A stretch of 64,000 bases of DNA from a virus (Duplodnaviria > Caudoviricetes), in IMG/VR virus record IMGVR_UViG_3300025867_000005; one strand, given 5' to 3'. The notes below the pieces were generated by a model. It searched no databases, was not told where the DNA came from, and worked only from the letters and a program-made list of their open reading frames with translations. Position 1 is the first letter of the stretch; each line of letters begins with the position of its first letter. The translations under genes were made by a program, and so were the position numbers. Below are positions 16,940 through 33,300 of the stretch, piece by piece.

Positions 16940-19792
16940 ATGTCAAGAATCACAATAGACCCTTCTGACCGCATGCTTGCAGTTTACGATAGTTATGAAG
17001 ATAAAGAAAGATGCCAGACCGCCGGATGCTTCTGGGACGGACTATCTAAAACATGGAAAATGTCTTTTACAATCTCCACTTTCGAAAGGCTGATTGAAAA
17101 TCTTCCGCATGCCGATATCGACCCCTGCGTTCCTTTGGCCTTGGAAGAACAGGCAGAAAAGGAAAAGAAGCTCAAGGAAATCCGCGAGTTGGCAAAAAAC
17201 AACCAAAATGTCAATTTCAGGGTTCCAGGACTCAAAGTCACTCCGTTCCCGTTTCAGAAACTAGGTATTCTCTATGCTGTTACCAACCAACAGGGAATGC
17301 TTATCGGGGATTCTATGGGACTCGGAAAGGGCTTAACCGTTGATAGTCAAGTACTTAGCCTAGCTGGTAAAGTTAGAATCGGAGACCTGAAAGTAGGTGA
17401 TAAGGTAGTCGGTAGAGACGGAGAAGAACATAATGTCACCGGGGTATATCCTAAACCGATGCAAGATGTTTATCGTGTTACTTTCAATGATGGATTCTCA
17501 CTTGATGTTGATTACGACCATTTATGGTATGTTGAATCAGCAAGTCAAAAGAAAACGAAATCGGGAAACGGTATCGTTTTGTCTATGTCTCAGCTTTTAG
17601 ACAAGAATGGCGTCGCTACCAGACAGGGAGTGGGACACAACAGCGACAAGGTTTATGAATTCAACACCTACTATAAAAAAGACAACGGGAATAATTCCTG
17701 GAGTATTCCTATCGTTTCTCCTGTTAACTTCCCTTGGAAAACTATTCAAATTGATCCTTATCTTCTAGGGGTTTTTTTGGGAGATGGATATATTTCAAAA
17801 GAAGGGGATGTTAGAATAGAGAAATTGTTTCCGGATTTAGTAGAAATGATCCCGTATAAAGAAATTAAACACGTACATGGAAGGCCGAAAGTCGGAGGAT
17901 GCTCTTTCTACAATTACAAGAAGGAACTGATTGAACTCGGTCTTAACGGGAAACGGTCTTGGGAGAAGTTTATACCAAGATGTTACAAATACAATAGCGT
18001 TGATGTAAGGCTGGGGTTGCTGCAAGGCCTTATGGATACCGATGGATGTGCAGGAGACTGTTCTACAGAGTACTGTACGGTTTCTAAGACCCTCTGTGAT
18101 GACGTTGTGGAAATCGTACAGACATTGGGAGGGATAGCAAGAATCAGTACCAAAACGCCGACATACACTTACAAGGGGGTAAAGAAGACTGGAAGGACGG
18201 CTTATCGGGTAAACATCAAACTTCCTCCTGAGATGGAACTCTTCCGTTTGAAGAGGAAAAAGGAAGTATATGACAAGTATGATAAATATTTACCAGCGCG
18301 TTACATTTCAAATATTGAGAAACTGCCCGAGAAGCAAGAGACCGTTTGTATCGCTGTAGACGCTCCTGATCATCTGTATGTCACAGAACACTGTATCGTC
18401 ACCCATAACACGATTCAGGGAATAGCGACGGCGATAGCCTTGAAGAATCAGGGCAAGATAAAGAATTGCCTTGTCATTACACCGGCAAGCTTGAAATTCA
18501 ACTGGCCTCTGGAAATAGAAAAATTCAGCAATGAAAAGTGCGTTGTCATTAACGGGAAGAAACCAGAGGACAGAATCAGCCAATGGTTTGATGACAGCGC
18601 TTTCTTCAAAATCGCGAATTATGAACTGGTAGTGGAAGATCTTGGGGCTGGGCGCGAAATCAAGATCAAGAAGTCCATGACGGCAGAGGAACAAGAAAAG
18701 GCAATGCTTCGCAAACTCCACAAACTCGTCAAACAGAAACGTTTGGAAAGCATTAAAGACAGGGTTTGGGATCTTGTTATTATGGACGAGGTGCACAGTT
18801 TGAAGCACAACGGCAGTAAGAGATATCAGGCTTTGAAGAACCTCAAAGCAAGGATTAAAATAGGTCTTTCGGGGACCCCGATGGACGGCAGGCTTGAAGA
18901 ATTGTTCAACGTCTTGAATGTCATATGTCCAGGAGTCTTAGGATCGAGAGAAATTTTCTTTAAAGACCATATGGTTACGGACATCTTCGGGACCGTAAAA
19001 GGGTATAAGAAACTTCAGGAAGTACAGGAAAAAATCGCCCCGTTCTTTATCCGTAGGTTGAAAAAAGACGTGCTGAAGGATTTGCCGGAAAAGCTGTATG
19101 AGAACAAGGTCATTTCTTTGTCTGATGAAGAAATGAAAATCTACAAGATGATTAAGGCGGGTAAACATCCTTGTGTCATCGACAAGGATGGACAACCGTG
19201 TTCTGCTATGGTAAGGGCGATCCGTTGTATGCAATTCGTCAACTTCCCGCAAATGCTTGAACCGAATTGCAAGAAGACGACGAAGCTGGATGTTTTCAGA
19301 GAAATCATAGAAGAGATTATTAAAGATAACGGACAGAAGATCATCATTTTTACTCAATTCAAGAAACTCTTGGATATTGTTGATAAAATCATGAAAGAAA
19401 TGAATTTGAAATTCCTCAGGATTGACGGAGACACAGACAAGAAGATACGCGCTGATTACCAGAAGATATTCAACGAAGACATGAGTGTTGATGCCATAAT
19501 CGGAACCGATGCTATGTCAACAGGACTTAACCTCATAGGTGGAGATACGGTTTTAAATCTGACACAGTGCTGGCAACCTGCTATTATGTCTCAAAGAGAA
19601 GACCGGAGTTATAGAATCGGAAGAAAGGGAAATGTCACGGTATTGAATTTCCTTTGCAAAGATACTATAGAAGAAAAGATCAGAAGCGCATTGTATTCAA
19701 AAGACAAAATCACTTCTGATACCTTGGGTGACGGAACCGATGAAGCGGTTCTTCTGAAGATGAGTCCGGAAGAAATCGAAAAGCTCATGTAG
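16940..19792 (+). CDS. SNF2-family helicase containing an intein
   Basis: GDSMGLGK/T Walker A, PASL, DEVH, LSGTP, RRLKKDV, RIDG, GLNL and QREDRSYRIG motifs. Confidence 0.92.
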   Translation: MSRITIDPSDRMLAVYDSYEDKERCQTAGCFWDGLSKTWKMSFTISTFERLIENLPHADIDPCVPLALEEQAEKEKKLKEIRELAKNNQNVNFRVPGLKVTPFPFQKLGILYAVTNQQGMLIGDSMGLGKGLTVDSQVLSLAGKVRIGDLKVGDKVVGRDGEEHNVTGVYPKPMQDVYRVTFNDGFSLDVDYDHLWYVESASQKKTKSGNGIVLSMSQLLDKNGVATRQGVGHNSDKVYEFNTYYKKDNGNNSWSIPIVSPVNFPWKTIQIDPYLLGVFLGDGYISKEGDVRIEKLFPDLVEMIPYKEIKHVHGRPKVGGCSFYNYKKELIELGLNGKRSWEKFIPRCYKYNSVDVRLGLLQGLMDTDGCAGDCSTEYCTVSKTLCDDVVEIVQTLGGIARISTKTPTYTYKGVKKTGRTAYRVNIKLPPEMELFRLKRKKEVYDKYDKYLPARYISNIEKLPEKQETVCIAVDAPDHLYVTEHCIVTHNTIQGIATAIALKNQGKIKNCLVITPASLKFNWPLEIEKFSNEKCVVINGKKPEDRISQWFDDSAFFKIANYELVVEDLGAGREIKIKKSMTAEEQEKAMLRKLHKLVKQKRLESIKDRVWDLVIMDEVHSLKHNGSKRYQALKNLKARIKIGLSGTPMDGRLEELFNVLNVICPGVLGSREIFFKDHMVTDIFGTVKGYKKLQEVQEKIAPFFIRRLKKDVLKDLPEKLYENKVISLSDEEMKIYKMIKAGKHPCVIDKDGQPCSAMVRAIRCMQFVNFPQMLEPNCKKTTKLDVFREIIEEIIKDNGQKIIIFTQFKKLLDIVDKIMKEMNLKFLRIDGDTDKKIRADYQKIFNEDMSVDAIIGTDAMSTGLNLIGGDTVLNLTQCWQPAIMSQREDRSYRIGRKGNVTVLNFLCKDTIEEKIRSALYSKDKITSDTLGDGTDEAVLLKMSPEEIEKLM
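17330..18409 (+). mobile_element. class 3-type intein (Gly1, W-C-T triplet) with LAGLIDADG homing endonuclease
   Basis: Interrupts GLGK|T; block B DHLW, block F VCIAVD, ends VTHN|T; LLGVFLGDG and LLQGLMDTDG motifs. Confidence 0.88.
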
Positions 19793-20284: not shown

Positions 20285-20805
20285 GAGTGATAACAGCAGT
20301 AGAACAATACGAAAAGAAACCGGGAGACATTTCGATTTTTCTTGCCGGAGGCATTCAGAACACAAAGGAATGGCAGAAAGAAGTCATTGCAAGCCTTCAG
20401 AAAAAGTTTGACAGCATAGACCAGGTTGTTGTTTTCAATCCTCGGCGTGAAAATTTTCCTATTCATGATCCGAATGCCGCACAGGAACAAATCACTTGGG
20501 AATATAGAATGCTGGAAACGGCAGATATCTTTTCCATGTATTTTGCCGGAGGCACAAGTGATCAACCTATTTGCATGTACGAACTTGGCAAACACCTTGA
20601 AAGGCGTTCAAGGAACAATGATTTAGACAGGGTTATTGTCTCTTCTGAACCGGATTACAAAAGGGTTCAGGATGTTAAAATTCAGACGCGCCTAGTCTAT
20701 CCTAAGATGGTCATCGGAGATTCTCTTGAAGATCATATCGAAAGCATAATTTCTGTGATCCGTTGGCAATTGATATTGCAAAACAAAAAGGATGGTAATC
20801 AATAA
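20281..20805 (+). CDS. nucleoside 2-deoxyribosyltransferase-like protein
   Basis: IFLAGGI..WQ..VFNPRR..QITWEY..LE.AD..ELG signature. Confidence 0.8.
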   Translation: MRVITAVEQYEKKPGDISIFLAGGIQNTKEWQKEVIASLQKKFDSIDQVVVFNPRRENFPIHDPNAAQEQITWEYRMLETADIFSMYFAGGTSDQPICMYELGKHLERRSRNNDLDRVIVSSEPDYKRVQDVKIQTRLVYPKMVIGDSLEDHIESIISVIRWQLILQNKKDGNQ

Positions 20806-22334
20806 TGGGTGTATTCGACAGTGGAGTAGAACTTGAACGGACGGTATTGAAAAGTCTTTTGACAGACGAATCTTGTTGTCAGATCAACACGACAAAGCTG
20901 AAGGAAGATTATTTCAGCTCAGAAGCCAGACGGTTCATTTTCAATGAAATCAATCGTGAATTGCTCCAGAACAATTGTGCGTTATCAGAGCAGGTGCTGG
21001 AAAACATCATCACTTTGCAACACAGTGATGAATATGTCACATTCATGGGTGAAAAGAATTTGGTCATCAATTCCAAGCCGACCAAAAACATCAATTCGGT
21101 TATCCGGTTGCTTCATGAAATGTGGGTGGGTAGAGAGACAAATGCTTGTTTGGAATCCGTAGCAGAACTTATAGGAAGCGGCCATTTTGTGGATGCCGCG
21201 AAATTGTTCCGTCAAAAGGCTTTCACAATCCAGATTGAACAGAACATCAAAAAGACCAAGGAATTTTTCTCTTCAATCAAAGAACGTATTTCAAGAGTGA
21301 GAGACAAGAGAGATAACCCTGAAAAATACAGGGGTCTAAAAACAGGCTTTGCCACATTCGACTTACAGACCGGAGGCTTGTTTCCTGGTGAAATGACCTT
21401 GCTTGCTGGTGTAACTGGTTTGGGTAAATCAACAATTCTGAAACAGATGGAATACGGTTTGCTGATTAACAATCCAGGTAAGAACGTTCTGCATATCGCA
21501 AACGAAGAGTATGAAGAACAGGTAGATTCAAAATTCGACTCCGTGTTTACAGGGATTGATTACCATAGTTTCAAATTCGCAAGGAAAGAAGATGTTCCAG
21601 AAGAAGTACTTAAAAGCTGGGAGATACACATCGAAAAGATTGCAAAACAGTGCAAAGGCAAGCTTTATACAAAGGAAGTCCCTGCGTTTTCAGATGTCAG
21701 CATTATCAGAAGGGCAGTCCATGAACTAAAGGCACAGGGAATAGAAATCCATGCCATTTTCATTGACCATCTTCCCAACATGAAACCGGTACAACCGGCA
21801 TACGGTGAGAACAATGAGAGAGAGAAGTGCGCGGCAGAATGTAAGGAATTGGCAAGGGAATTGCAGGTTCCTGTTGTCGTCCCTACTCAGGCGGCGACAG
21901 TCGTTGAAGAAAAACAGAACAAAGGCAAGAGGGCAAGCAAATTGGACGTTTACGGTTCAAAAGCACAGATTCACCATGCCAATACGTTTTTCATTATTAC
22001 ATTCCTTGGAAAGGATGCGAAGACAATAAGAAGTGATGGAAGTCCTGAAACTCTTGATTATCTTCGGGATGTGTTTATCCTATGTGACGTTAAGAAGAAC
22101 CGTGACGGAGCTTGTTTCACCTTTAAGCTCAGGCACCACGTAAGAAACGGAAGGATGGAAGAAATAGAAATCAGCCCTGAAATCAAGAAACGCTTTGAAG
22201 AAGAAATGGCGGCAGCACTTAAATCAGGAGATTTCTCTACTTCTGTCGTTGATGAAGAAGCGCCGAAAAAGGATTCCGCAAAGGGAATTACGGTGTTGGA
22301 ACAAGATGAATCAGAGCATGGTGAAGGATTCTAA
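20805..22334 (+). CDS. dnaB: replicative DNA helicase (DnaB-like)
   Basis: GLKTGF..D..TGGL.PGE, Walker A GVTGLGKS, NEE, IFIDH, ELARELQVPVV.PTQ, KKNRDG. Confidence 0.9.
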   Translation: MGVFDSGVELERTVLKSLLTDESCCQINTTKLKEDYFSSEARRFIFNEINRELLQNNCALSEQVLENIITLQHSDEYVTFMGEKNLVINSKPTKNINSVIRLLHEMWVGRETNACLESVAELIGSGHFVDAAKLFRQKAFTIQIEQNIKKTKEFFSSIKERISRVRDKRDNPEKYRGLKTGFATFDLQTGGLFPGEMTLLAGVTGLGKSTILKQMEYGLLINNPGKNVLHIANEEYEEQVDSKFDSVFTGIDYHSFKFARKEDVPEEVLKSWEIHIEKIAKQCKGKLYTKEVPAFSDVSIIRRAVHELKAQGIEIHAIFIDHLPNMKPVQPAYGENNEREKCAAECKELARELQVPVVVPTQAATVVEEKQNKGKRASKLDVYGSKAQIHHANTFFIITFLGKDAKTIRSDGSPETLDYLRDVFILCDVKKNRDGACFTFKLRHHVRNGRMEEIEISPEIKKRFEEEMAAALKSGDFSTSVVDEEAPKKDSAKGITVLEQDESEHGEGF

Positions 22335-22383: not shown

Positions 22384-23328
22384 ATGTCAGAACACAAGCT
22401 ATTGACTCAACAGGAAACCGGAACGAAATTTGAAGGAACGTACTTTGTTTCTGCGGTTTCAATCAAGAAGACTGTCACTAAGAAAGACTATACAGAAATT
22501 ACTCTTCGTGACAAGAGTGGTGCAGTTTTCGCCAAACAGTGGGAAAACAACCAGAATGTCAAAAAGGGTGACTTTGTAGAAGCGGCAATTAGCGTTGAAG
22601 ATTACAAGGGGGCACCTTCGTATATCATTAACGAAATAAAGACCACGAATCCGCCTTTGGATATGACTGATTACTTGCCTTGTGTGGAAAACATTGAAGA
22701 AGAATTTTCGACATTCAAATCATACCTTTCGATTGTGAAGTCGATGGCTGAAGATTTGGAATCTGGAATTGAAGACGTGCTTTCCGGTGTCTTTTCAGAG
22801 GCTATTCTTCGTGCATTGAAGCGTTCCCCGTCTAGTCTCGGTGTGTTCTACGGCAAGTCTGGAAGCGCGATACAGAATTCAAACAGGCTTTACAAGATCG
22901 CGAGTTCTTTGGTAGAGACTTACGGACTGAAAGATGATGAGAAGCTAGTTCTTCTTTCAAGTTGTCTATTGTCAAGAGTCCCATGTGTGGATTGTTATGT
23001 CATGCAGGATTGCGCCCCAGAAGAGACGAAGACAGCGCGGCTTATCAATTTCAGGACCTTGATGCAGATGCGTATGTTCGAGGCGTGGAAGGGTCTTAAA
23101 TCTTCTCCGAACCGCGAATGGCTATTCCGTATCATGCACGTTCTCGGATGCAGTGAAAACGATCTAAAGCCCTGTACAAGGGAAGCGATTGTGTTCTCGA
23201 AGATTCTTGAAATCGACAACGCGATTAGTGAAAGCTTTGATTACATCGAACGTGAAGAATGTTGGGAAAACGGGTTCACTACTTATGACGTGAAAAATGG
23301 ACGCCGTTACTATGTTTCAGAAAAGTGA
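22384..23328 (+). CDS. OB-fold + degenerate HD-domain protein (YhaM/Cbf1-like)
   Basis: N-terminal OB fold (LRDKSG...AKQW); HD-region architecture including P.TREA, but LLSR where LLHD is expected. Confidence 0.6.
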   Translation: MSEHKLLTQQETGTKFEGTYFVSAVSIKKTVTKKDYTEITLRDKSGAVFAKQWENNQNVKKGDFVEAAISVEDYKGAPSYIINEIKTTNPPLDMTDYLPCVENIEEEFSTFKSYLSIVKSMAEDLESGIEDVLSGVFSEAILRALKRSPSSLGVFYGKSGSAIQNSNRLYKIASSLVETYGLKDDEKLVLLSSCLLSRVPCVDCYVMQDCAPEETKTARLINFRTLMQMRMFEAWKGLKSSPNREWLFRIMHVLGCSENDLKPCTREAIVFSKILEIDNAISESFDYIEREECWENGFTTYDVKNGRRYYVSEK

Positions 23329-24430
23329 AGAAAAGTCACAGGCATGGGAAAGATATCGGGATATCAAGTGGTTGATGGAAATCATAGATCTACCGACTTG
23401 TCTTGACCGCCTTAATATAGAAATGACGAAAACCTCTGGCTTGGAATGGGAAGGGTTTTGCCCTGATCATTTCTTGTTTAAGGGGTGTGCCCCTTCTGAT
23501 CCTAAATGGTATATCAATACCATTACCGGTGAAACATGTTGTCAGACAGAAGGAAGAGGCAGCAACATCCTATTCGTTTCAGCAAGGCTTTTGAAGTCCC
23601 CCAACAATTCTAAAATTTCTGAAGCCGATTGCGAACGTGCCGTTTCTTTCCTTGCCGGACGTGATATCAGCGAAAATGATATTTCTTTCCTAAAGACACA
23701 AAGCCTGTTGAAAAGAATAAACGGGCAAGGCAAGAAGGCAATAAGCAAAGAACAGACTTATGTTGAAGAAGTCGAAAGATATATGAAGTCCGGTTATCTT
23801 TCAAACCGCGCGATAAACTATTTCCTTTCCCCAGTAGGTAAGCCGAAAACAGATATCAGAAGGGAAACGCTTAAACACTATAACGTTTTTGAACGGACAA
23901 CAGGGAAGTATGTTAATCGGGCCACCGTACCTATTATCATGCGTGGGAAAGTAGAAGGGTTCGTGGCGATTGATATCTTGGGAAAAGAAGAATGGATGAA
24001 ACAGCATCCGACACTTGAAGAACGGGAATACAGAAAGACGATTTATCCAGGCCAAAAAGCCGGGTTTTCAAAGAAGGATGTTTTGTTCGGATATGATGAT
24101 TGCAAGAAGAATGCTGATTACATAATTCTGACAGAAGGTGCCAGAGAGGTCATGAAGCTTTGGCAAGAGGGATATTCTGATAGTCTTGCGATTCTCGGTG
24201 CGTACATGAATGATGAACAGATACTTCTGCTAACAGAACTTGCACCTTCAAAAGTCATCCTTATGTTCGACGGAGATATCGCTGGAAGGAAAATCGCGAA
24301 GACGGTAAAAGAAAAACTTGAAAAACTGTTTCCTGTTTCTATCGTATGTCTTCCAGACGGCGTAGACCCGAAACAATTAGACCACAATCAGATCAAAGGA
24401 TATTTAGAATGTGCGGAAACCCAGATATAG
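23297..24430 (+). CDS. dnaG: DNA primase (DnaG-like)
   Basis: N-terminal CPDH..C zinc-finger variant; TOPRIM motifs ILTEG, FDGDIAG, PDGVDP. Confidence 0.88.
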   Translation: MDAVTMFQKSEEKSQAWERYRDIKWLMEIIDLPTCLDRLNIEMTKTSGLEWEGFCPDHFLFKGCAPSDPKWYINTITGETCCQTEGRGSNILFVSARLLKSPNNSKISEADCERAVSFLAGRDISENDISFLKTQSLLKRINGQGKKAISKEQTYVEEVERYMKSGYLSNRAINYFLSPVGKPKTDIRRETLKHYNVFERTTGKYVNRATVPIIMRGKVEGFVAIDILGKEEWMKQHPTLEEREYRKTIYPGQKAGFSKKDVLFGYDDCKKNADYIILTEGAREVMKLWQEGYSDSLAILGAYMNDEQILLLTELAPSKVILMFDGDIAGRKIAKTVKEKLEKLFPVSIVCLPDGVDPKQLDHNQIKGYLECAETQI

Positions 24431-24651
24431 ATGAAATCAAGGAATTGTTAGAGCTTATTGAACAGCATCGGGTTCACGCCTTGCTGATGCCAGAAGACGG
24501 AATAAGGATAACATATTGTTACCCGAAAGGAACTGTCAGCTTCACAAACGACATGAATGAAATCCGTATCAAGACGGGAGATTACGTTTCTGTGTTCAGT
24601 AATCCATTGTCTATTCAACAAATCAAGAAGATGATAGAAAGCCTAAAATGA
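24409..24651 (+). CDS. hypothetical protein
   Basis: Bridges primase and helicase genes with overlaps; AAAGGA RBS. Confidence 0.5.
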   Translation: MCGNPDIDEIKELLELIEQHRVHALLMPEDGIRITYCYPKGTVSFTNDMNEIRIKTGDYVSVFSNPLSIQQIKKMIESLK

Positions 24652-25517
24652 AGACTTCTGATTTTCCTTATCTTCAATTCCCGTTCTATGAATTTAATCC
24701 GGTCCAATCCAAAGTGATACCTTTGATCGAAAAGGATGGCAACCTCATTGTCTCTTTTAAGCCAGGAACCGGTAAGACAGTAATTGCTGAAGCGTGTTTT
24801 GCCTACCATCTGAATACAAGTGATAAGAAAGTAGCCTATATATGTCCTTTTAGAGCCTTGGCGAATCAGAAATTCGAATCATGGAAAGAAAAATTCCACG
24901 GATACGGGATTAAAGTAATTTCCGGAGATTCAGATACTTCGATAAGAGACGTTGGAGAAAAAGACAGGATTCTCATTTTCACCACAGAAAGCTTCGACAT
25001 GCAGGTTAAAGATTGTCATGAATATTCTTGCATCTGCTTTGATGAAGGTCATCTTGTGGGAGATCCTGAAAGAGGTAAGAGCTATGAGAGCGCAGTGATC
25101 AAAGCCGCTGAAGCATCAAGGATCATTTTGCTTTCAGGAACATTGTCAAACGCTAAAGATTTGGCGAAATGGATTAAAACAGTTTCCGGCAAGCCTACTT
25201 ATTGTTGTGAAAGCAAATGGACTCCTAACAAATTTGATGTCAGATACCACTATGTTGAAAGATATAAGGAAATTGAAACAGCCGTTAAGCTTGTTAGGGA
25301 ATACAAAAACACTAAGACGATCATTTTTGTACATTCAAAACTAGTCGGTAAATCAGTTATGGATGAATTGAAAAAGAGTAAAATCAGGGCTGTTTTCCAT
25401 AATTCCACACTCCCAGAAGGCAAACGGAAGCGGTATGAAGATTTATTCGAAAATATCTATAGCGGGATAGACGTGATCGTTGCGACATCTACACTTGCGG
25501 CGGGCGTCAATTTGTGA
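24648..25517 (+). CDS. Ski2/Hel308-like SF2 helicase, N-terminal part (motifs Q to V)
   Basis: FNPVQ, PGTGKT, PFRALANQK, DEGH, LSGT, IFVHS, FHNS; ends ATSTLAAGVNL-stop. Confidence 0.88.
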   Translation: MKTSDFPYLQFPFYEFNPVQSKVIPLIEKDGNLIVSFKPGTGKTVIAEACFAYHLNTSDKKVAYICPFRALANQKFESWKEKFHGYGIKVISGDSDTSIRDVGEKDRILIFTTESFDMQVKDCHEYSCICFDEGHLVGDPERGKSYESAVIKAAEASRIILLSGTLSNAKDLAKWIKTVSGKPTYCCESKWTPNKFDVRYHYVERYKEIETAVKLVREYKNTKTIIFVHSKLVGKSVMDELKKSKIRAVFHNSTLPEGKRKRYEDLFENIYSGIDVIVATSTLAAGVNL

Positions 25518-25588
25518 ATTGATTTTATCCGGGAAATGGTTTCTCGGGTTTCAGAAACGTGTATAACACTAGCGAAAGGAAGAAAGAA

Positions 25589-25816
25589 ATGTTTACGAAA
25601 TATGAGTTGGTCGGGTTCAATGAACAAGGTAAGGAAAATTTCCCGGACATCGCGGATTCGGTTTTCTTGTTTGTCGCCAATATCCCCAACAATGAAAGCT
25701 ACTGTATTGTAAAGGGATTCAGGGGAAAGTATACGCTTGGAAATGAATTCGTTGAACTTTCTTCAGATTTGAGAAAGCTGACTACGGAAGAGATCGAAAA
25801 TTGGTTTTCTGAATAA
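25589..25816 (+). CDS. hypothetical protein
   Basis: AAGGA RBS; lies between the helicase halves. Confidence 0.55.
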   Translation: MFTKYELVGFNEQGKENFPDIADSVFLFVANIPNNESYCIVKGFRGKYTLGNEFVELSSDLRKLTTEEIENWFSE

Positions 25817-25863
25817 CTGGGAGGGCTTAACAGCCCTTCATGAATTTTAACAAGGTATAAGAT

Positions 25864-26208
25864 ATGAGAACAATTATCGCTGGAAGCAGAGACTGCAAGG
25901 ATTACAGCAAAGTGATTCAGGCTATCAAGGAATGTGGATGGAAACCTACTGTTGTTATATCCGGAACAGCTTCTGGAGGAGATAGACTAGGAGAACTTTG
26001 GGCAAGGAATAACGGAATCAAGATTGAACAGCATCCTGCGGATTGGGACAAATACGGAAGAAAGAGAGCCGGATATATCAGGAATGTAGAAATGGCTGAG
26101 GTCGCGGAAGCACTTATCGCACTATGGAACGGTCAAAGCGCAGGAACGAAAGATATGATTGAAATAGCCAAAAAAAAGGGTCTAAAAATCTTTGTATTGA
26201 TGGTGTAA
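25864..26208 (+). CDS. SLOG/YspA (DUF2493)-like protein
   Basis: IIAGSR, VISG.A.G.D.LGE.WA, ADW.KYG..AG..RN..MA, S.GT..MI. Confidence 0.85.
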   Translation: MRTIIAGSRDCKDYSKVIQAIKECGWKPTVVISGTASGGDRLGELWARNNGIKIEQHPADWDKYGRKRAGYIRNVEMAEVAEALIALWNGQSAGTKDMIEIAKKKGLKIFVLMV

Positions 26209-26211
26209 TGA

Positions 26212-26796
26212 ATGACAATCGAAGAATTAAAAGCAGAATGTGAAAGTTGTAGGTCTTGCGAAATAGGAGGCCAGACTCTAAACGAGCATACTTGTACTGT
26301 TTTGTCTAATCTCAATTCCGCTGCAAAGATCATGGTAGTAGGGCAGAATCCTGGATTTGAAGAAGTCCTCAGGGCAACACCTTTTGTCGGCATTTCCGGA
26401 AAGATATTCGACAAGGCACTTTCAGAGAATACAAGTCTTACAAGGGATGATTTGTATATCTGTAATGCCGTTTGCTGCTTTACTCCAGGGAACAGGAAAC
26501 CGACAGGGGCTGAATTTAAGAATTGTTCCGTTTGGCTTAGAAGACAGATTAAGGAGATAAACCCGATTGTCATAGTAACGCTAGGAGGTGTCGCCTTAAA
26601 GGCGCTGACAGGACGCACAAAGATATCGGAAGCACACGGGAAGCTTATTAGAAGTGAAATTTACGATGTTGATGTCTATCCTATCCTTCATCCTTCCCCT
26701 TTGAACACAAATAGACCTGACAAAAAGAAAGAATTTGTTTCTGATATGATCGGTCTACAGAAAGTCTTGGAAAGTAAAAAATGGCAGAACACGTAA
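26212..26796 (+). CDS. uracil-DNA glycosylase, family 4
   Basis: C-x2-C at N-terminus, VGQNPG..E, PFVG.SG, NAVCC..PGNRKP, HPSP. Confidence 0.9.
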   Translation: MTIEELKAECESCRSCEIGGQTLNEHTCTVLSNLNSAAKIMVVGQNPGFEEVLRATPFVGISGKIFDKALSENTSLTRDDLYICNAVCCFTPGNRKPTGAEFKNCSVWLRRQIKEINPIVIVTLGGVALKALTGRTKISEAHGKLIRSEIYDVDVYPILHPSPLNTNRPDKKKEFVSDMIGLQKVLESKKWQNT

Positions 26797-27731
26797 TCAT
26801 CACAGGAGTAAGAAGAGCAAGGGAACTTGTCGGTATCTCTGAACTTAAGCAGATGTGTGGACGTGGAGGCCGCACACAGGACGGTAGAACCTATTGCGCA
26901 GACATCATCCTGACATATGATGATATGGTGATAGAAGATTCCTTACAGAAGGAAGAATCTATGCCTGTTATATCTACTCTTTCAGACATGAAGAACTTTT
27001 GTTTTTATCTTCTTCCAAGACTCTCTCAAATAGGAAGATTTACAGAATCTGATATTCAAAATCTGTATTCTAAGACACTGGCATTTTGTCAAGGTAGGGA
27101 AATGGATATTTCGAAGGTGATTTCTTATCTTGAAGAAAACGAGGCGATTGCCGAAGTGACGGGACCGGACGAAACCAGACGTTGGATTGTTGATGTTCTA
27201 GGGGCTATCGCCAGCCACCTTTTTATACCCGTGAAAGACGTAAAACTGCTTCATGACAATTTTTTGTATTTGAAGAAGAATGGAAATCTTGATCAAGATG
27301 CTTGTTTGGCTTGGGCATTGGGTAATCTCGACAGCATACGGATAAACGGGGATTATGGAGAACAGCATCGGGAAGAAATATCCAACTTCAAAGGAGATCT
27401 TCCTATTGATTATTCTTGTGAAGACGGGACAGTCCTGACGGCTTCCCTTTGGTGGTGCATTCTCGGTAATGGAATTCCAGGGAAGAATATGGCTACGAAT
27501 GTAAGACAGTTGAAAAAGACTTGGCATCGGCTGAAACTTGCATTATCTTGGTTTCCGGAGTTTGAAGAATATATCAAGGTTTGGGATATCCGCGTCACAA
27601 AGAGCATCAAAAAAGAATTGGTTCCATTCTTCGACGGTTGTTTCCAAATGTCCAAAAACAGGGCGATGTCTCTGTATGAGCTCGGGTACAAGTCTTGGGA
27701 AGGCACTGAATCTGTTGAAATAGATGATTGA
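26781..27731 (+). CDS. Ski2/Hel308-like helicase, C-terminal part (motif VI onward)
   Basis: Starts MAEHVII and contains ELKQMCGRGGR (motif VI), followed by a winged-helix/ratchet-like region. Confidence 0.8.
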   Translation: MAEHVIITGVRRARELVGISELKQMCGRGGRTQDGRTYCADIILTYDDMVIEDSLQKEESMPVISTLSDMKNFCFYLLPRLSQIGRFTESDIQNLYSKTLAFCQGREMDISKVISYLEENEAIAEVTGPDETRRWIVDVLGAIASHLFIPVKDVKLLHDNFLYLKKNGNLDQDACLAWALGNLDSIRINGDYGEQHREEISNFKGDLPIDYSCEDGTVLTASLWWCILGNGIPGKNMATNVRQLKKTWHRLKLALSWFPEFEEYIKVWDIRVTKSIKKELVPFFDGCFQMSKNRAMSLYELGYKSWEGTESVEIDD

Positions 27732-27780
27732 AAAAATCATGTTGCTAAACTATTCTGACATGACAAGAAAGTGAAAACGT

Positions 27781-28539
27781 ATGTCTGCTTTAGAAATAGA
27801 TCCGAACACACCTGAAATCGTGTTTATGTCGAGCCTTAGAACGATGCTTAAAAGCGTTGGCATCACTCAGAATCAAGAGGCGATGGATTACTTCAAACTG
27901 ATGGAAGAAGCTGTTATACGTGATGTATTCCACCGTCAAAACCCCGACAATACGGAACGCTACAAAGAACACAGAAGCCGCCAGATTTTCATTAAGATTT
28001 TTCAGAGCCGATACAAGCTGACTTATGACATTGATTATGAAATTCCAGTAGGCGATAAAAGCGCGAAGATGATAGGGAATCTCCTGACCAAATTGGAAAA
28101 AGATGAAATCCCTATTGACTATTATCTAGAATGGTTTTTTGAGACCTATATCCAGGAAAAGAAATTCACGGTTGAAAGCATTATGAATCCCTGCCAAGCT
28201 TGGGTTTTGCAATCCTTCAAACTCCAAAACCGTGATTCGATGGAAGAAATTAAAGAGAAGAAAAAAGAAGAACTTGAAATCGTTTCATTACTTGATAAGG
28301 CAAGGGAACTTGTAAGAACAGCAAGGGTGTTGAACGAAAACACTTTGGAAGAAGAAATTGTACAGACATCTAAATCTTTCAAGGCGAAAGGAATCAATCT
28401 GGAAACCTATAGGGAGATGGTAAAATCATTCTCACGAAGAATGAAGACCATTAAAGAACAGAAGATGCTAGGACGACAGGAAAAACAGACGGAAGGAGAA
28501 AAAGAAAATGGATGTGGAATTGTTTCAGAATCTGAATGA
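27781..28539 (+). CDS. hypothetical protein (replication cluster)
   Basis: 252 aa helical ORF; no motif recognised. Confidence 0.65.
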   Translation: MSALEIDPNTPEIVFMSSLRTMLKSVGITQNQEAMDYFKLMEEAVIRDVFHRQNPDNTERYKEHRSRQIFIKIFQSRYKLTYDIDYEIPVGDKSAKMIGNLLTKLEKDEIPIDYYLEWFFETYIQEKKFTVESIMNPCQAWVLQSFKLQNRDSMEEIKEKKKEELEIVSLLDKARELVRTARVLNENTLEEEIVQTSKSFKAKGINLETYREMVKSFSRRMKTIKEQKMLGRQEKQTEGEKENGCGIVSESE

Positions 28540-29189: not shown

Positions 29190-30179
29190 ATGAATAACGC
29201 AGATAAGTTAAACAAACGTGAGAACAAGTCTTCCGATAAAGGAAGCAAAAATGGTACTGGAGAGAAGAAGGGTTACGTGAAGATGGGTACGGTTCATGCG
29301 AAGTGGGAGCCGGGCACCACGACAGTAAGAGCTGTCGGTGATTTCTTTGAAACACACATGCATGGACTTTCTCCAAATGATTTCGGAAGCGTAGGCGTTA
29401 TGCCCAAATCTGCTTTCGGAGGCAAAGGTAAAGACTTTATCCCGTGGGAAGTGTGTTGCTTGGATTGGGATATGATCAATGATGAATACCGCAAGGAAAG
29501 ATCTTGTCCTTTCTGCAAGTTGAATTTCCGTGCTTCTTGCATGTTGAAGAAAGAAGACTTGTCAAAAGAAGATATCGCCAAGTATACAAGGATTAAGAAC
29601 GCTTGTCATGCTGGTTCTAAAATCCGTTGGAATATCATCGATAGAGAAAATCCGACATACACGATCGTCAATCCGGACGGAACAGAATCTGATGTCAAAG
29701 GATACAAGATCGGTGGTTTCGGTATGTCCGTCTTTAAGACAGGAATCAAGGGTCTGTTTGAGATGGCAGGTGGAGATATCGCAGATGTAGATAGCGGCAT
29801 TGACTTCAACCTTAAGCGTAGCAAAGACGAAAAAGGAAAGACTGTCTATGAAGCCGTTGCCGTTATGGAAAAAGGTGCGATGAAGTTTACTCCCCTTACT
29901 GATGAACAGAAATCTTGGACGCTTTGGAATATCCCTGAAATTTTCGGGAAGGACTGGAGCTTTGAAAAGATTTACCCGCTTATGCATGAAGAGTTCCGCG
30001 AATTGCTGGACATGACGGATGAAGAGTTCCGTGAATTCAGCGGCTATACCGGAAAGAAGGCTGAAGAGCCTACAGAAGAAAAAGAAGACAAGAAAGATGT
30101 AAAAAAAAACAAGAAGGTAAAGTCAGCTCCTGTGCAGGAACAACAGGAACCGCAGGACGAAGAGATTCTTCCATTCTAA
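29190..30179 (+). CDS. single-stranded DNA-binding protein (gp32-like)
   Basis: H/C..CPFC zinc ligands, NIIDR, GIDF.LKR; charged linker ending in SSB-type acidic tail DEEILPF; upstream of recA. Confidence 0.75.
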   Translation: MNNADKLNKRENKSSDKGSKNGTGEKKGYVKMGTVHAKWEPGTTTVRAVGDFFETHMHGLSPNDFGSVGVMPKSAFGGKGKDFIPWEVCCLDWDMINDEYRKERSCPFCKLNFRASCMLKKEDLSKEDIAKYTRIKNACHAGSKIRWNIIDRENPTYTIVNPDGTESDVKGYKIGGFGMSVFKTGIKGLFEMAGGDIADVDSGIDFNLKRSKDEKGKTVYEAVAVMEKGAMKFTPLTDEQKSWTLWNIPEIFGKDWSFEKIYPLMHEEFRELLDMTDEEFREFSGYTGKKAEEPTEEKEDKKDVKKNKKVKSAPVQEQQEPQDEEILPF

Positions 30180-30344: not shown

Positions 30345-33300
30345 ATGGCTAAAGAAGCAAAAGCAAAGCCTACTCGCTTTGAAAACATGCAGAAATTGGC
30401 TGACCTTATCAATAAGAGTCAGTGGGGTGGTGAAAACCACGATATCGCGGGTGTCCTTGGTGGAACCGTAGTCTCAAACGTGGAACGTATCTCAACGACA
30501 TGTAGAGACATCGATTGGGCGTGGGGTGGTGGTTTGCCAATAGGTAAAATCGTAGAACTCTTCGGCGGAGAATCTTGTCTTGATAAGGACACTTTTGTCC
30601 ATTATCAGACATGGAAGAATGGCAAGCAGATTAACGATAAGGGCGGAACGATAGAACGTCTTTATGAACGTTTCACGGGTGACACCGCGACAGGTAAGAA
30701 ACAAGGAAGACATCTTCAGGAAAAAGATTGCGATTTCTTTGTAATTTCTTGTGACAATGAAATGAAAATGGTACGCAATAGGGTTATCGGAGTTGTTAAA
30801 ACAGGAAAGAAGACTTGTTTCGAGGTTACGACAGAAGATGGACAGAAGATTACATCAACTCTTGAACACAAATTCATGGTGGAATCTGGATTTAAACCTC
30901 TTTCTGATTTGAAAATCGGAGATGTCGTCTATGTCCACAACAATACAAGGATACATGGGCAAAAAGATCGTGAATATTATCCTGAAATTATGGTTAAATA
31001 TCATCCACACGCGAAAACAAAGATTGTGAATGGTTATACCTATTTCCGCGTAAGGAAATCACATGCGGTTCTTGAAGCAGATAGGAATCAAATGTCGTTT
31101 GACGAATATCAACACTTTTTGAATACGGCTTCAAAAGAAGAAATCAACAGAATAAAAACGATTCCAGAAGGCCTACATGTCCATCATATTGATGAAAATG
31201 TGAACAATAACACTATTTCTAATCTTTTAGTGATTAATCCAAAAGATCATGGTGTTTATCATTCGAAAATGAAGCTTAAAAATCTTAGTTTTGTAGCGGC
31301 TCCTGTCAGGATTACTTCAATTGTGAACGTAGGAGAACGCGACACTTATGACATTAAGTGTGATTTCCCTAACAATAACTTCGTAGCCAACGACTTTGTT
31401 GTTCATAATTCCGGCAAATCCACACTTGCTTATCACATCATCGCTAGTTTCCAAGACAAATATCCTGATAAGGGAATCTTGCTTTTGGACACTGAACACA
31501 GCTATGATCCTCTCTATGCAGAAGCTCTTGGCGTTAAGGCACAAGGGATTATCCACACTGAAGCTGAATCGGGAACTGATGCGTTGAATATCGCTAAGCT
31601 TGCTGTAGAATCAGAATGTGGTGTCGGACTGGTTATTATTGACAGCATCGCGGCTCTTACTACAAAGAGCGATGATGAAGGGGATATCGGAGATCAGACG
31701 ATGGCAGAACAGGCTAGAATGGTCAGCCAGGCTATGCGTGTTTTGAACAGCTTGATTACCAAGCACAAGATCACGTTGCTTTGTACCAACCAAGTCCGTG
31801 AAGCCGTTGGACAGTGTTTTGATTATAGCACTCCAATTACGCTTAAAGATGGCACTATCATGGAAATCGGAAAACTTGTTAATCAAAAGATTAACTGCGA
31901 AGTTCTTTCATATGATCCTGTTTCAAACAAAATAGAACCGAAGACGGTTACTAATTGGTTCGACAATGGACCAATGGCAGATGGCGAACATTTCTTACAG
32001 TTTAAGCTTTCAACTCTATGTGGCTTTGGTAAGGGAGGAATTCGTAAAATAAACGTTACCCCTAATCATATTATTTTCGTTCCTCATGGAGAAAAGATGG
32101 CTAGTGAAATTAAACCAGGAGAATCAGTATTGATTCCAGAATGGAGTTATTATTCTAAAGACCAGCATGAAATTATTCTTGGAAGTATGTTTGGAGACGG
32201 AAACCTTAGATATGACAAGGGTTCTCCTCGTGGAACGTTAAGGTTTATTCATTGTCAAGAACAGACCGATTATTGTTCTTGGAAAGCGGAATCTTTCGGC
32301 GAAGAAGTGCGTTTTGATATAAGAGGCCGTCCTCAATTTGAGACAAAATCATCTTCGGAGTTTGACCAGTATAAAGATTTCGGGAAGAAGCAGTTTCCGC
32401 GAGAAATTAGTCAAGAACACATAGACAATCTTTCTCCTAAATCTTTTGCGATTTGGTATATGGATGATGGCAACTTTAGCGGAAGTCATGAAAAAATAGG
32501 TTTTGGGAAGTGTAGAATCGGTTCTTCCTCAATTATTGGTAGAGACTTGGAAAAAATTGCCAGAAAATCAGAGGAACTTGGTCTTGGACTTCCAATGTTT
32601 AAAGAAGGTGTTGGTCTTGTTTGGTATGGAGAACAAAGCGGGATGTTCCAGCGTGGAATTTCAAAATATGTCCATCCGAACATGAGATATAAAATAAAGA
32701 AAGGGATGCCTGATTTTGATTGGACCGTAGAACGGAAAGAGAAAGAACTTGTCCCTGTCGCTAGGACCGTTCAGTCAGTTTCTGTTTATGTCCCTCCCAA
32801 AAGACAAAGGAACAAATTCGATATAGAGGTTGACGGAAACCATTCTTACATCGCTGGAGGAATGATTGTCCACAACAGTTACGGAGATAAGACAACGACT
32901 CCAGCAGGAAAGGCATTGCGGCACTATGCCCACATTAGAGCTAAACTTTCCCGTATCGGACAAATCAAAGTCGGGGATGACGTTGTTGGTGTGAAGGTTA
33001 AAATGAGTTGTGTCAAGAACAAGGTGGCACCTCCTTTCAGGAATGCAGAATACACCATTACTTTCGGTATCGGTATTGATGCCGTTGTAGGAAGTGTAGA
33101 AAAGGCTATCGCCCTTGGGGTTATTGTTAAGAAGGGCGGTTGGTTCTCTTTCAACGGGAAGACTTGGCAGGGCCAACAGACGGTTGTTGATGAACTCAGA
33201 GGGAATGCTGACTTGCGTAAAGAAATCGACGCCGCTATTGATGCCAAGACGGCTGCTTCTGATAAACCTGAAGGTACTGAGATGACGGAAGAAGAAAAGA

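What the first reader, a model, noticed from the sequence alone, without database searches (positions are those of the whole stretch)
24648..27731. Hel308/Ski2-like helicase split exactly at the end of motif V, with three cargo genes in the gap
Seen: the N-half ends ATSTLAAGVNL-stop and the C-half begins M-AEHVII...ELKQMCGRGGR. Established: the family consensus is ATxTLAAGVNLPAxxVII...QMxGRAGR, so only the Pro is replaced by stop/Met and nothing else is lost. About 1.26 kb lies between the halves: a hypothetical gene, a SLOG gene and a family-4 UDG whose end overlaps the C-half start. No intein, intron or transposase hallmarks were seen. Inference: a functional two-chain helicase whose second RecA domain assembles in trans. 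The clean break could be the scar of a former mobile element.
Basis: partly seen in the sequence, partly recalled or inferred. Interest (0 to 1): 0.75.

Follow-up and report, generated by a model that had tools for sequence, protein, structure and literature searches.

The report
Anciently split two-gene phage Hel308 helicase
A 304-kb sludge phage encodes its only Hel308-type DNA helicase as two genes cut inside the second motor domain; about 90 related phage sequences keep the same cut under strong selection, and the slot between the halves collects other genes, here a small unknown gene, a SLOG gene and a long-resident uracil-DNA glycosylase.

Summary
The N-half (24648-25517) stops right after motif V (…ATSTLAAGVNL). 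The C-half (26781-27731) starts M-AEHVII. An unsplit relative has exactly one codon, Pro, where the stop and Met lie.

The break is not a private accident. About 90 of 256 related N-regions end at the same residue, down to 30% identity, and nearly all fall in one clade of large-phage helicases. Every C-half found has its own start codon. Both halves are under strong purifying selection (dN/dS 0.04-0.13), and all catalytic motifs are invariant. A complex model docks two C-half strands into the N-half's RecA2 sheet (ipSAE 0.84, best control 0.00).

The gap varies across the clade: overlapping or 1-48 nt, UDG alone, or UDG plus others; nuclease genes, a methylase and unknown genes also occur. The UDG has diverged in step with the helicase, so it is an old resident. 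The closest relative (85%) lacks UDG and SLOG, and SLOG is unique to this phage.

No intron, intein or bypass signal is present. A mobile-element origin is possible but unproven: inteins sit three residues upstream in many unsplit relatives, and a second lineage seems to have split at the same bond independently.

This scan already noted the same split clade on other genomes. I found no paper describing it.

The parts
24648..25517 (+). Helicase N-half (289 aa): RecA1 plus the first part of RecA2, with motifs I (GTGKT), II (DEGH), III (SGT), IV and V. It stops directly after ...TLAAGVNL.
   Evidence: ORF. Pfam DEAD 3.6e-26 and Helicase_C 5e-08, matched only to profile position 81 of 110. Hel308 NCBIfam models 2e-27. 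Brr2/Hel308/Ski2 PDB hits.
25515..25517 (+). TGA stop at the position of the conserved Pro codon of unsplit relatives (the break point).
25589..25816 (+). Gap gene 1: 75-aa protein of unknown function with AGGAAG ahead of the ATG. Also present in the gaps of L018 (96% identical) and L019.
   Evidence: dN/dS 0.03-0.06 against L018. No Pfam, PHROG or NCBIfam family. Atlas search gave only unnamed clusters.
25820..25839 (+). G+C-rich hairpin after gap gene 1 (terminator-like, weak T tail). Not more than chance would give.
   Evidence: 1 found against 2.7 expected in shuffles.
25864..26208 (+). Gap gene 2: SLOG protein (YAcAr/YspA family), 114 aa. Found in this phage only among 97 loci.
   Evidence: Pfam PF10686 3.8e-14, phrog_289 1.6e-27, jackhmmer hit in the window alone.
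26212..26796 (+). Gap gene 3: family-4-like uracil-DNA glycosylase, 194 aa. Motifs GQNPG and HPSP and the Cys residues are invariant. Its last 16 nt overlap the C-half start.
   Evidence: A UDG follows the N-half in 16 split loci. Its divergence tracks that of the helicase.
26781..27731 (+). Helicase C-half (316 aa): the last two RecA2 strands, a short beta-hairpin, motif VI (QMCGRGGR), then winged-helix, ratchet and helix-hairpin-helix domains. It has its own ATG, with GGAAAG 6-11 nt upstream.
   Evidence: ORF. AF2 model pLDDT 88.6. Best folds Hjm 2zj8 and Hel308 2va8/2p6r. Collinear with Hel308 models at positions 350-637.

Best explanation
The two ORFs are the two subunits of one Hel308-type (Ski2-like SF2) DNA helicase of a jumbo phage's replication and recombination module. 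The gene was cut long ago at the peptide bond between motif V (...GVNL) and the following Pro. The cut is inherited by a whole clade of large phages. Each half is translated from its own start codon, and the C-half is often coupled to whatever gene lies upstream of it. The halves then assemble without covalent joining. The first two strands of the C-half (HVIIT and ADIIL) slot into the RecA2 sheet of the N-half, bringing motif VI and the beta-hairpin next to motifs I-V. This restores a complete ATPase/translocase with its WH, ratchet and HhH domains. Shown here: the conserved break, selection on both halves, intact motifs, separate starts, and fold and family. Inferred: assembly and activity. 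The junction has become a slot for extra genes. A family-4-like UDG entered it early in one large sub-clade and has been co-inherited since. This phage also carries a small unknown gene, shared with its nearest relatives, and a SLOG gene of its own. How the first cut arose is open: invasion by a free-standing homing endonuclease gene that was later lost (my odds about 40-45%), or a plain stop/start fission at a structurally tolerant surface turn.
For: Conserved break:
- All 43 relatives of 270-308 aa end at GVN[LI] plus 0-3 residues, at 85% down to 30% identity.
- In a search without length limits, 94 of 256 classifiable N-regions are split at this residue.

Phylogeny:
- 90 split sequences form one clade with 3 fused ones (FastTree, SH-like 73; IQ-TREE, 44 rows, SH-aLRT 85), inside a viral clade at 99.
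- A clade of the 40 main split rows alone is not rejected (p-AU 0.205).

Selection:
- dN/dS window vs L018: N-half 0.07-0.08, C-half 0.12-0.13.
- L005 vs L028: 0.043 and 0.043. L033 vs L038: 0.06 and 0.10.

Invariant residues: G42 K43 T44, D132 H135, S163 T165, T280 L283 G286 in 39 N-halves; Q24 G27 R28 R31 in 18 C-halves.

Separate translation: each of the 18 split loci whose junction was printed shows an ATG, GTG or TTG with consensus M-[AS]-D-[RH]-V-I-I. Spacing to the N-half stop runs from a 4-nt overlap (TTGA, L037) through 1, 10, 24 and 48 nt to 1863 nt, and the frames differ.

Assembly: complex prediction ipSAE 0.84 (runs 0.83, 0.84, 0.84) against a best control of 0.00. The tool's mark was reached by 58 of 80 solved complexes and 2 of 110 mismatched pairs. 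At least 92% of contacts agree between runs and partner pLDDT is at least 84. C-half residues 1-13 and 37-47 touch N-half 222-230 and 195-205. Because single-chain Hel308 structures are solved, this pass may reflect likeness to them.

Fold: C-half model pLDDT 88.6, top matches Hjm and Hel308 (E 3e-10 to 8e-8), then the Pol theta helicase domain and Brr2.

Copy number: one copy only in the 304-kb genome.

Unsplit outgroups carry ...GxNLPARRVVI... in one ORF.
Against: - No biochemical or RNA evidence exists for any member, and association and activity rest on a model.
- The complex pass may come from the model's memory of single-chain Hel308 structures.
- Support for the split clade is moderate (73 and 85), not decisive.
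- The C-half evolves faster than the N-half (for example 46% vs 58% against L019), though it is still under purifying selection.
Confidence: 0.85

Rival explanations
1. The halves are joined after transcription or during translation, by a self-splicing intron that carries the three genes or by ribosomal bypass, so that a single-chain helicase is made.
For: In this window both halves happen to lie in the same reading frame (24648 and 26781 are both multiples of 3). T4 gene 60 shows that phages can bypass short gaps (established knowledge).
Against: - The Rfam scan at E<=5 finds no group I or II intron.
- In relatives the gap shrinks to a 4-nt overlap or 1-48 nt, leaving no room for an intron, and the frames differ between loci.
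- Every C-half keeps its own start codon and Met, and every N-half keeps a stop straight after motif V.
- A 1.26-kb gap with three conserved, selected genes is far beyond known bypass.
Confidence: 0.03
2. The halves are ligated by protein trans-splicing (a split intein), as in the 'fractured genes' of marine phages.
For: The same genome is reported to hold a split intein in DnaE (scan note e1-5708564, not tested here). Its RecA holds two inteins. Relatives of this helicase carry inteins.
Against: The N-half ends at the extein residue L289 with no ~100-aa IntN. The C-half begins with extein sequence and has no ~35-aa IntC. Pfam finds no Hint or intein domain in either half or in the gap proteins. 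No nucleophile (C/S/T) stands at the +1 position, which is Ala.
Confidence: 0.01
3. The gene is broken and decaying, or the two halves have taken separate jobs and do not form one helicase.
For: The C-half diverges faster than the N-half. A half helicase cannot hydrolyse ATP alone, since motif VI is on the other chain (established knowledge of SF2 enzymes).
Against: - dN/dS is 0.04-0.13 on both halves in three independent pairs.
- Motifs are invariant on both chains.
- Wherever the contig reaches far enough, the two halves lie in the same order and on the same strand.
- The break is conserved to 30% identity.
- The complex model passes its controls.
Confidence: 0.06
4. The UDG is not a passenger. 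N-half, UDG and C-half form one three-protein repair machine, and the gene order reflects co-assembly.
For: - A UDG sits in the gap of 16 split loci, always on the same strand.
- In several loci it is directly coupled to the C-half start.
- Its divergence tracks that of both halves (Spearman 0.80 and 0.84).
- Its catalytic motifs are invariant.
- No UDG lies within about 6 kb of the unsplit relatives.
Against: - The closest relative (L018, 85%) has no UDG between equally conserved halves.
- Five split loci have empty gaps, and the apparently basal lineages lack UDG.
- Other genes can separate the UDG from the C-half (L019, L021, L041).
- Co-inheritance of tightly linked genes is expected without any physical interaction.
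Confidence: 0.1

Closest known systems
Archaeal Hel308/Hjm and the helicase-like domain of Pol theta/HELQ (Ski2-like SF2 helicases; PDB 2p6r, 2va8, 2zj2/2zj8, 5a9j)
   Same: Same motif set (I, II DExH, III, V, VI). Same domain order: RecA1, RecA2, winged helix, ratchet, helix-hairpin-helix. Both halves align collinearly to the Hel308 models and structures.
   Different: It is encoded as two polypeptides cut inside RecA2. It belongs to a distant viral branch (about 20% identity in the C-half) that scores far below NCBIfam's Hel308 equivalog cut-off (95.6 and 22.6 bits against 1200). It sits in a phage replication module.
Phage 'genes in pieces' without inteins: Aeromonas phage Aeh1 nrdA split by the free-standing HNH endonuclease gene mobE, whose two NrdA parts form an active reductase (as summarised in PMC2677866, Discussion)
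   Same: A conserved DNA-metabolism enzyme is cut at a conserved motif. Unsplit homologues exist in relatives. Foreign gene(s) lie between the pieces. The pieces are presumed to reassemble non-covalently.
   Different: - No homing endonuclease lies in this window's gap. Nuclease-like genes occur only in L003 (DUF559/Vsr-type with zinc ribbons) and L044 (GIY-YIG).
- The split is ancient and clade-wide (about 90 sequences), not confined to one phage.
- The gap can be empty.
- The long-term resident is a UDG.
'Fractured genes': split inteins with a free-standing endonuclease gene between the halves (Dassa et al. 2009, PMC2677866)
   Same: Phage replication and repair enzymes are broken in two with a gene in between. 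This genome and this helicase family are rich in inteins.
   Different: No split-intein halves flank the break, so no protein splicing can occur. gp41-type helicases, not Hel308-type, were reported there.
Naturally split reverse gyrase of Nanoarchaeum equitans (PMC4117796)
   Same: An SF2-helicase-containing enzyme made of two separately encoded subunits that associate.
   Different: That split lies between the helicase and topoisomerase modules. Here the cut runs through the RecA2 fold itself, so neither chain holds a complete motor.

Membership tests
Hel308/Ski2-like SF2 helicases | SF2 motifs I (GxGKT), II (DExH), III (S/TAT-like), V (TxxLxxGVNLP) and VI (QxxGRxGR) | tested here: met
   GTGKT, DEGH, SGT and TSTLAAGVNL lie on the N-half and QMCGRGGR on the C-half. 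These positions are invariant in 39 N-halves and 18 C-halves. Only the Pro after motif V is missing.
Hel308/Ski2-like SF2 helicases | Domain order RecA1-RecA2-winged helix-ratchet-HhH | tested here: met
   The C-half model (pLDDT 88.6) matches Hjm, Hel308, Pol theta-HLD and Brr2 over about 330 columns. phmmer aligns residues 15-161 and 260-308 to Hjm 355-503 and 625-672. NCBIfam PRK01172 matches positions 350-637.
Hel308/Ski2-like SF2 helicases | Orthology to archaeal Hel308 (NCBIfam equivalog NF040935, cut-off 1200 bits) | tested here: not met
   95.6 bits (N-half) and 22.6 bits (C-half). Even the unsplit viral relative from L006 scores 189.5. This is a distant viral branch of the family, not an orthologue.
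Hel308/Ski2-like SF2 helicases | DNA-dependent ATPase and 3'-5' unwinding | not testable with these tools
   Needs purified, co-expressed halves.
Phage genes-in-pieces made by free-standing homing endonuclease genes (Aeh1 nrdA/mobE type) | A homing endonuclease gene between the two pieces | tested here: not met
   The window gap holds an unknown gene, a SLOG gene and a UDG. Nuclease-like genes occur only in the gaps of L003 and L044. Five relatives have empty gaps.
Phage genes-in-pieces made by free-standing homing endonuclease genes (Aeh1 nrdA/mobE type) | Unsplit homologues in relatives, and pieces that together cover the whole enzyme with nothing lost | tested here: met
   L001, L006-L015 and many others are fused. 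Exactly one codon separates the two matches.
Phage genes-in-pieces made by free-standing homing endonuclease genes (Aeh1 nrdA/mobE type) | Pieces reassemble non-covalently into an active enzyme | tested here: inconclusive
   The complex model scores 0.84 against a best control of 0.00 and selection acts on both halves. There is no experiment.
Fractured genes with split inteins | IntN at the end of the first piece and IntC at the start of the second | tested here: not met
   No Hint or intein domain in either half. The halves end and begin with extein sequence.
Self-splicing group I/II intron with ORFs | Ribozyme core detectable, with exon junctions in one frame | tested here: not met
   No Rfam intron at E<=5 in 24000-28500. 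Relatives have overlapping or 1-48 nt junctions and differing frames.

The most novel reading that the evidence does not exclude
The peptide bond after motif V is a recurrent, convergent fission point driven by selfish elements that home to the conserved motif-V DNA: inteins three residues upstream in at least 14 unsplit clusters, and nuclease genes in some gaps. On this reading the resulting inter-half slot has been domesticated as a heritable cargo bay, and its oldest tenant, the UDG, works together with the two-chain helicase as one uracil-repair or replication-restart machine.
Probability: 0.12. Interest if true: 0.8.

Novelty: new variant of a known kind. Interest (0 to 1): 0.6.

Why it matters
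Natural enzymes cut through the middle of a RecA motor domain are rare. Here a whole clade of large phages has kept such a cut for a very long time. This makes a natural test case for three things: how gene fission is tolerated, by strand complementation inside a fold; how phages cope with selfish-element pressure on replication genes; and how a break point turns into a landing slot for accessory repair genes.

It also bears on annotation. These halves are called 'DEAD/DEAH box helicase' and 'hypothetical protein' in public records. Phage gene catalogues therefore undercount Hel308-type helicases and mislabel the C-half.

The pair could serve as a ready-made split-helicase scaffold for engineering.

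Tried and rejected
The genomic contexts of database proteins (P0002-P0044, P0145, P0168, P0171, P0055, P0064, P0109) could therefore not be fetched. Contexts come only from the search for related loci.
- blastn of the region against GenBank phages: no match.
- Single-protein scans of IMG/VR with either half: no relatives. The scan with P0109 found none. The scan with P0145 gave only a fused 51% relative, L098.
- No RNA holder is listed among public runs, so nothing can be said about transcripts. The two DNA runs that hold the stretch may be its source.
- Rfam at E<=5 gave only three sub-threshold, irrelevant hits.
- The promoter and terminator scan gave no more sites than shuffles.
- The 75-aa gap protein has no family in Pfam, PHROGs or NCBIfam, and the Atlas search returned only unnamed clusters.
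- Literature searches for a split Hel308 or split SF2 helicase in phages found nothing relevant.
- Re-fusion of P0055, P0064 and P0109 could not be proven from the N-half tree, because excluding them from the split clade is not rejected (p-AU 0.205).
- A direct intein scar was considered and rejected. The inteins of unsplit relatives sit after ...LAWG, three residues upstream of the break, and no Hint remnant is present.
Full report
**1. What is in the window**

The window is bases 84571-148570 of a 304,025-base IMG/VR virus record rated complete. Two activated-sludge DNA runs hold the stretch unchanged in 205-kb and 303-kb contigs, and these may be its source.

All genes around the finding lie on the + strand, in a replication and recombination module:
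- a 509-aa gene at 20805-22334, annotated as a helicase in an earlier scan note (not tested here)
- an unknown protein, 22384-23328
- a Toprim primase, 23297-24430
- the helicase N-half, three small genes, and the helicase C-half
- two unknown genes
- a gene at 29190-30179, read as SSB in an earlier scan note (not tested here)
- a RecA with two inteins

The N-half (24648-25517, 289 aa) ends ...VATSTLAAGVNL-TGA. The C-half (26781-27731, 316 aa) begins MAEHVIITGV and carries QMCGRGGR.

Between them, over 1263 nt, lie three genes:
- a 75-aa gene, 25589-25816
- a SLOG gene, 25864-26208 (PF10686, 3.8e-14)
- a UDG gene, 26212-26796 (PF03167, 4.1e-30), whose last 16 nt overlap the C-half ATG

**2. 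Only one residue is replaced**

The 595-kb uncultured phage LR756511.1 encodes a 675-aa unsplit homologue with ...ATSTLAWGLNLPARRVVILG.... The N-half match ends at L001 4942 and the C-half match, from its second residue, begins at 4946. The stop and the Met therefore occupy exactly the Pro codon.

**3. The break is conserved, not private**

A length-restricted search returned 43 relatives of 270-308 aa at 85% down to 30% identity. All end at GVN[LI] plus 0-3 residues.

A search of 1.84 billion representatives without length limits gave 6907 hits. The best are again about 300-aa proteins ending at this residue. Some are longer only because they carry inteins in the P-loop or near motif II.

I classified 256 N-regions: 94 split at this bond, 146 fused, and 14 fused with an intein in motif V.

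I fetched 95 related loci. In every split locus where the contig reaches far enough, the C-half follows on the same strand.

**4. One main origin, probably a second one**

- FastTree places 90 split sequences and three fused ones in one clade (SH-like 73), next to the fused P0069.
- IQ-TREE on 86 rows gives the same clade (44 rows, SH-aLRT 85), inside a viral clade supported at 99.
- Holding all 43 split rows together is rejected (p-AU 0.00026). Holding the 40 main ones together is not (p-AU 0.205). The rejection therefore comes from P0145, P0171/P0197 and P0168.
- These three end at ...WGINI...WGVNI and ...FGINV but group with fused mega-phage helicases such as L008. They lie on contigs of 466 kb, up to 20 kb (three contigs) and 44 kb, so truncation by a contig end is unlikely. 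This looks like a second, independent fission at the same bond. I could not fetch their contexts, so this remains probable only.
- Three fused proteins near or inside the split clade have odd junctions: GVNL-MADR-ILV (P0109), GVNL-SCDR-AIIV (P0064) and GVNI-LSSNDRE-HVVIV (P0055). The canonical junction is GVNL-PARR-VVI. P0109 keeps the Met of a C-half. They are either re-fusions or intermediates, and the tree cannot decide.

**5. Both halves are working genes**

dN/dS values:

| Pair | N-half | C-half |
|---|---|---|
| window vs L018 (85% identical) | 0.07-0.08 | 0.12-0.13 |
| L005 vs L028 | 0.043 | 0.043 |
| L033 vs L038 | 0.06 | 0.10 |

Motif residues are invariant on both chains.

In all 18 split loci whose junction was printed, the C-half has its own ATG, GTG or TTG, with consensus M-[AS]-D-[RH]-V-I-I. 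The distance from the N-half stop varies: a 4-nt overlap (TTGA, L037), 1 nt (TAAAATG, L005), 10, 24 and 48 nt, and up to 1863 nt. Reading frames differ among loci.

This variety, the absence of any Rfam intron and the absence of Hint domains exclude RNA splicing, ribosomal bypass and protein splicing as general ways of joining the halves.

**6. How the halves fit together**

Both halves map collinearly onto Hel308/Hjm. The N-half matches Brr2, Hel308 and Ski2. The C-half matches Hjm residues 355-503 and 625-672 and NCBIfam Hel308-type models at positions 350-637.

The AlphaFold model of the C-half (pLDDT 88.6, pTM 0.78) shows, in order:
- strand 4-8
- a short hairpin
- helix 19-27 (motif VI)
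- strand 39-43
- helical WH, ratchet and HhH parts

Its best structural matches are Hjm 2zj8 (E 3e-10), Hel308 2va8 and 2p6r, then the Pol theta helicase domain and Brr2.

The complex prediction scored 0.84 (ipSAE) against 0.00 for the best of three controls. The runs agree in at least 92% of contacts, and the partner's pLDDT is at least 84. The tool's mark was reached by 58 of 80 solved complexes and 2 of 110 mismatched pairs.

C-half residues 1-13 and 37-47 pair with N-half residues 222-230 and 195-205. Two strands of the C-half thus complete the RecA2 sheet of the N-half. Because single-chain Hel308 structures are solved, this pass may reflect likeness to them. It shows that the halves can rebuild the fold, not that they bind in the cell.

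From established knowledge of Hel308, the strand-separating beta-hairpin lies between motifs V and VI. It would therefore sit on the C-half, just after the break.

**7. The gap is a slot with changing tenants**

Contents of the gap among split loci:

| Gap content | Loci |
|---|---|
| Empty or nearly empty | L005, L028, L037, L059, L096 |
| UDG alone | L004/L030, L024, L027, L064 |
| UDG plus others | window; L019 (75-aa gene, UDG, small ORFs); L003 (DUF559/Vsr-type zinc-ribbon endonuclease, UDG); L021; L041 (UDG, N6/N4 DNA methylase) |
| UDG right after the N-half, then the contig ends | L020, L023, L029, L032, L040, L047 |
| No UDG, other genes | L018 (75-aa gene only), L016, L033/L038, L044 (GIY-YIG protein) |

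The UDGs of nine loci share invariant GQNPG, HPSP and Cys residues. Their pairwise identities track those of the N- and C-halves (Spearman 0.80 and 0.84; the pairs are not independent). The UDG has therefore been inherited together with the helicase since early in one large sub-clade.

The apparently basal lineages have no UDG: the clade of L016, L037, L033 and L038, and the P0059/L096-like forms. This fits 'split first, UDG later'.

The closest relative, L018, keeps the 75-aa gene (96% identical, dN/dS 0.03-0.06). It lacks SLOG and UDG. Homology with the window stops 6 nt after that gene's stop and resumes 22 nt before the C-half ATG. By parsimony with L019, L018 lost the UDG and this phage gained SLOG, which occurs in no other locus. 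No UDG lies within about 6 kb of any fused relative.

**8. Origin of the break**

Evidence for a selfish-element origin:
- 14 fused clusters carry an insert after ...ATSTLAWG, three residues upstream of the break. L009 (Intein_splicing 1e-17 plus LAGLIDADG) and P0093 were confirmed as inteins by Pfam; P0081 gave only a weak Hint match. The rest are inferred from the same junction and extra length. The DNA that encodes motif V is thus a repeated homing target.
- Nuclease genes of types used by free-standing homing endonucleases sit in the gaps of L003 and L044.
- The same bond seems to have been cut twice.
- This genome's other replication genes are also hit: two RecA inteins, and a three-piece DnaE noted earlier in this scan.

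Evidence against:
- The basal split lineages have empty gaps.
- No endonuclease or remnant lies in this window's gap.
- The intein site is not the break site.
- A surface turn followed by a buried strand is also where a plain fission would be best tolerated.

I put a mobile-element origin at about 40-45%.

**9. Comparison with what is known**

By family, this is a distant viral branch of the Hel308/Ski2-like helicases. It has the motifs and the domain order but falls far below the Hel308 equivalog cut-off.

By mechanism, it is closest to phage genes in pieces that reassemble without splicing, such as Aeh1 nrdA split by mobE (summarised in PMC2677866). It differs in four ways: it has no endonuclease here, it is clade-wide and ancient, the gap may be empty, and the gap holds a long-term UDG.

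It is not a split-intein 'fractured gene' (PMC2677866). It also differs from the split reverse gyrase of Nanoarchaeum, which is cut between modules (PMC4117796). Here the cut runs through RecA2.

I found no paper on a split Hel308-type helicase in phages. Earlier notes of this scan describe the same split clade on other genomes. My results were obtained independently and agree with them.

**10. Verdict**

The case is a new variant of a known kind (genes in pieces) and of moderate to high interest.

Noticed in passing
window 30345-33347: The RecA gene (1000 aa) carries two inteins, one with an HNH domain and one with a LAGLIDADG domain (Pfam RecA 1.4e-56, Intein_splicing 5.6e-23, LAGLIDADG_2, HNH_3).
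   Followed up: partly
L009 7940-9280, and proteins P0081, P0093, P0122, P0124, P0137, P0147, P0150, P0158, P0175, P0176, P0181, P0187, P0189: Unsplit relatives carry an insert in motif V, after ...ATSTLAWG and before C/S/A, three residues upstream of the split point. L009 and P0093 were confirmed as inteins by Pfam; P0081 gave only a weak Hint match. The rest are inferred from the junction pattern and length.
   Followed up: partly
L034 3804-6011; proteins P0051, P0060, P0053; L041 2-1513: N-halves of the split clade can also carry in-frame inserts. P0051, P0060 and L034 hold LAGLIDADG inteins in the P-loop, and P0053 has a weaker intein match (below Pfam's cut-off) near motif II. L041 has an insert of about 230 aa with no Pfam hit.
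   Followed up: partly
proteins P0145 (466-kb contig), P0171/P0197, P0168: N-halves that end at ...WGINI, ...WGVNI and ...FGINV but group with fused mega-phage helicases that have a zinc-ribbon N-terminal extension. This is a probable second, independent fission at the same bond. Their contexts could not be fetched.
   Followed up: partly
proteins P0109, P0064, P0055: Single-chain helicases near or inside the split clade with non-canonical junctions (GVNL-MADR-, GVNL-SCDR-, GVNI-LSSNDRE-H). They are either re-fusions of split genes or intermediates.
   Followed up: partly
window 19214-19534, and about 5.5-6.5 kb upstream of the N-half in L003, L004, L005, L018, L021, L024, L028: A second SF2 helicase C-terminal domain, in a different gene, lies at a conserved distance upstream. 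Synteny of the module is therefore kept across the split clade.
   Followed up: no
L041 2140-3033; L044 547-801; L003 7918-8814: Other tenants of the inter-half slot are an N6/N4 DNA methylase, an 84-aa GIY-YIG protein, and a 298-aa DUF559/Vsr-type endonuclease with zinc ribbons.
   Followed up: partly
window 24346-24651: A 101-aa ORF with no family overlaps the primase end, and its stop overlaps the N-half start codon by 4 nt (ATGA-type coupling).
   Followed up: no
window 26212-26796, and the UDGs of L003, L004, L019, L021, L024, L027, L041, L064: The gap UDGs form a distinct subfamily with an invariant GQNPG in place of the family-4 GE[AG]PG motif. They score just below the TIGR00758 cut-off (113 against 125.3 bits).
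   Followed up: partly
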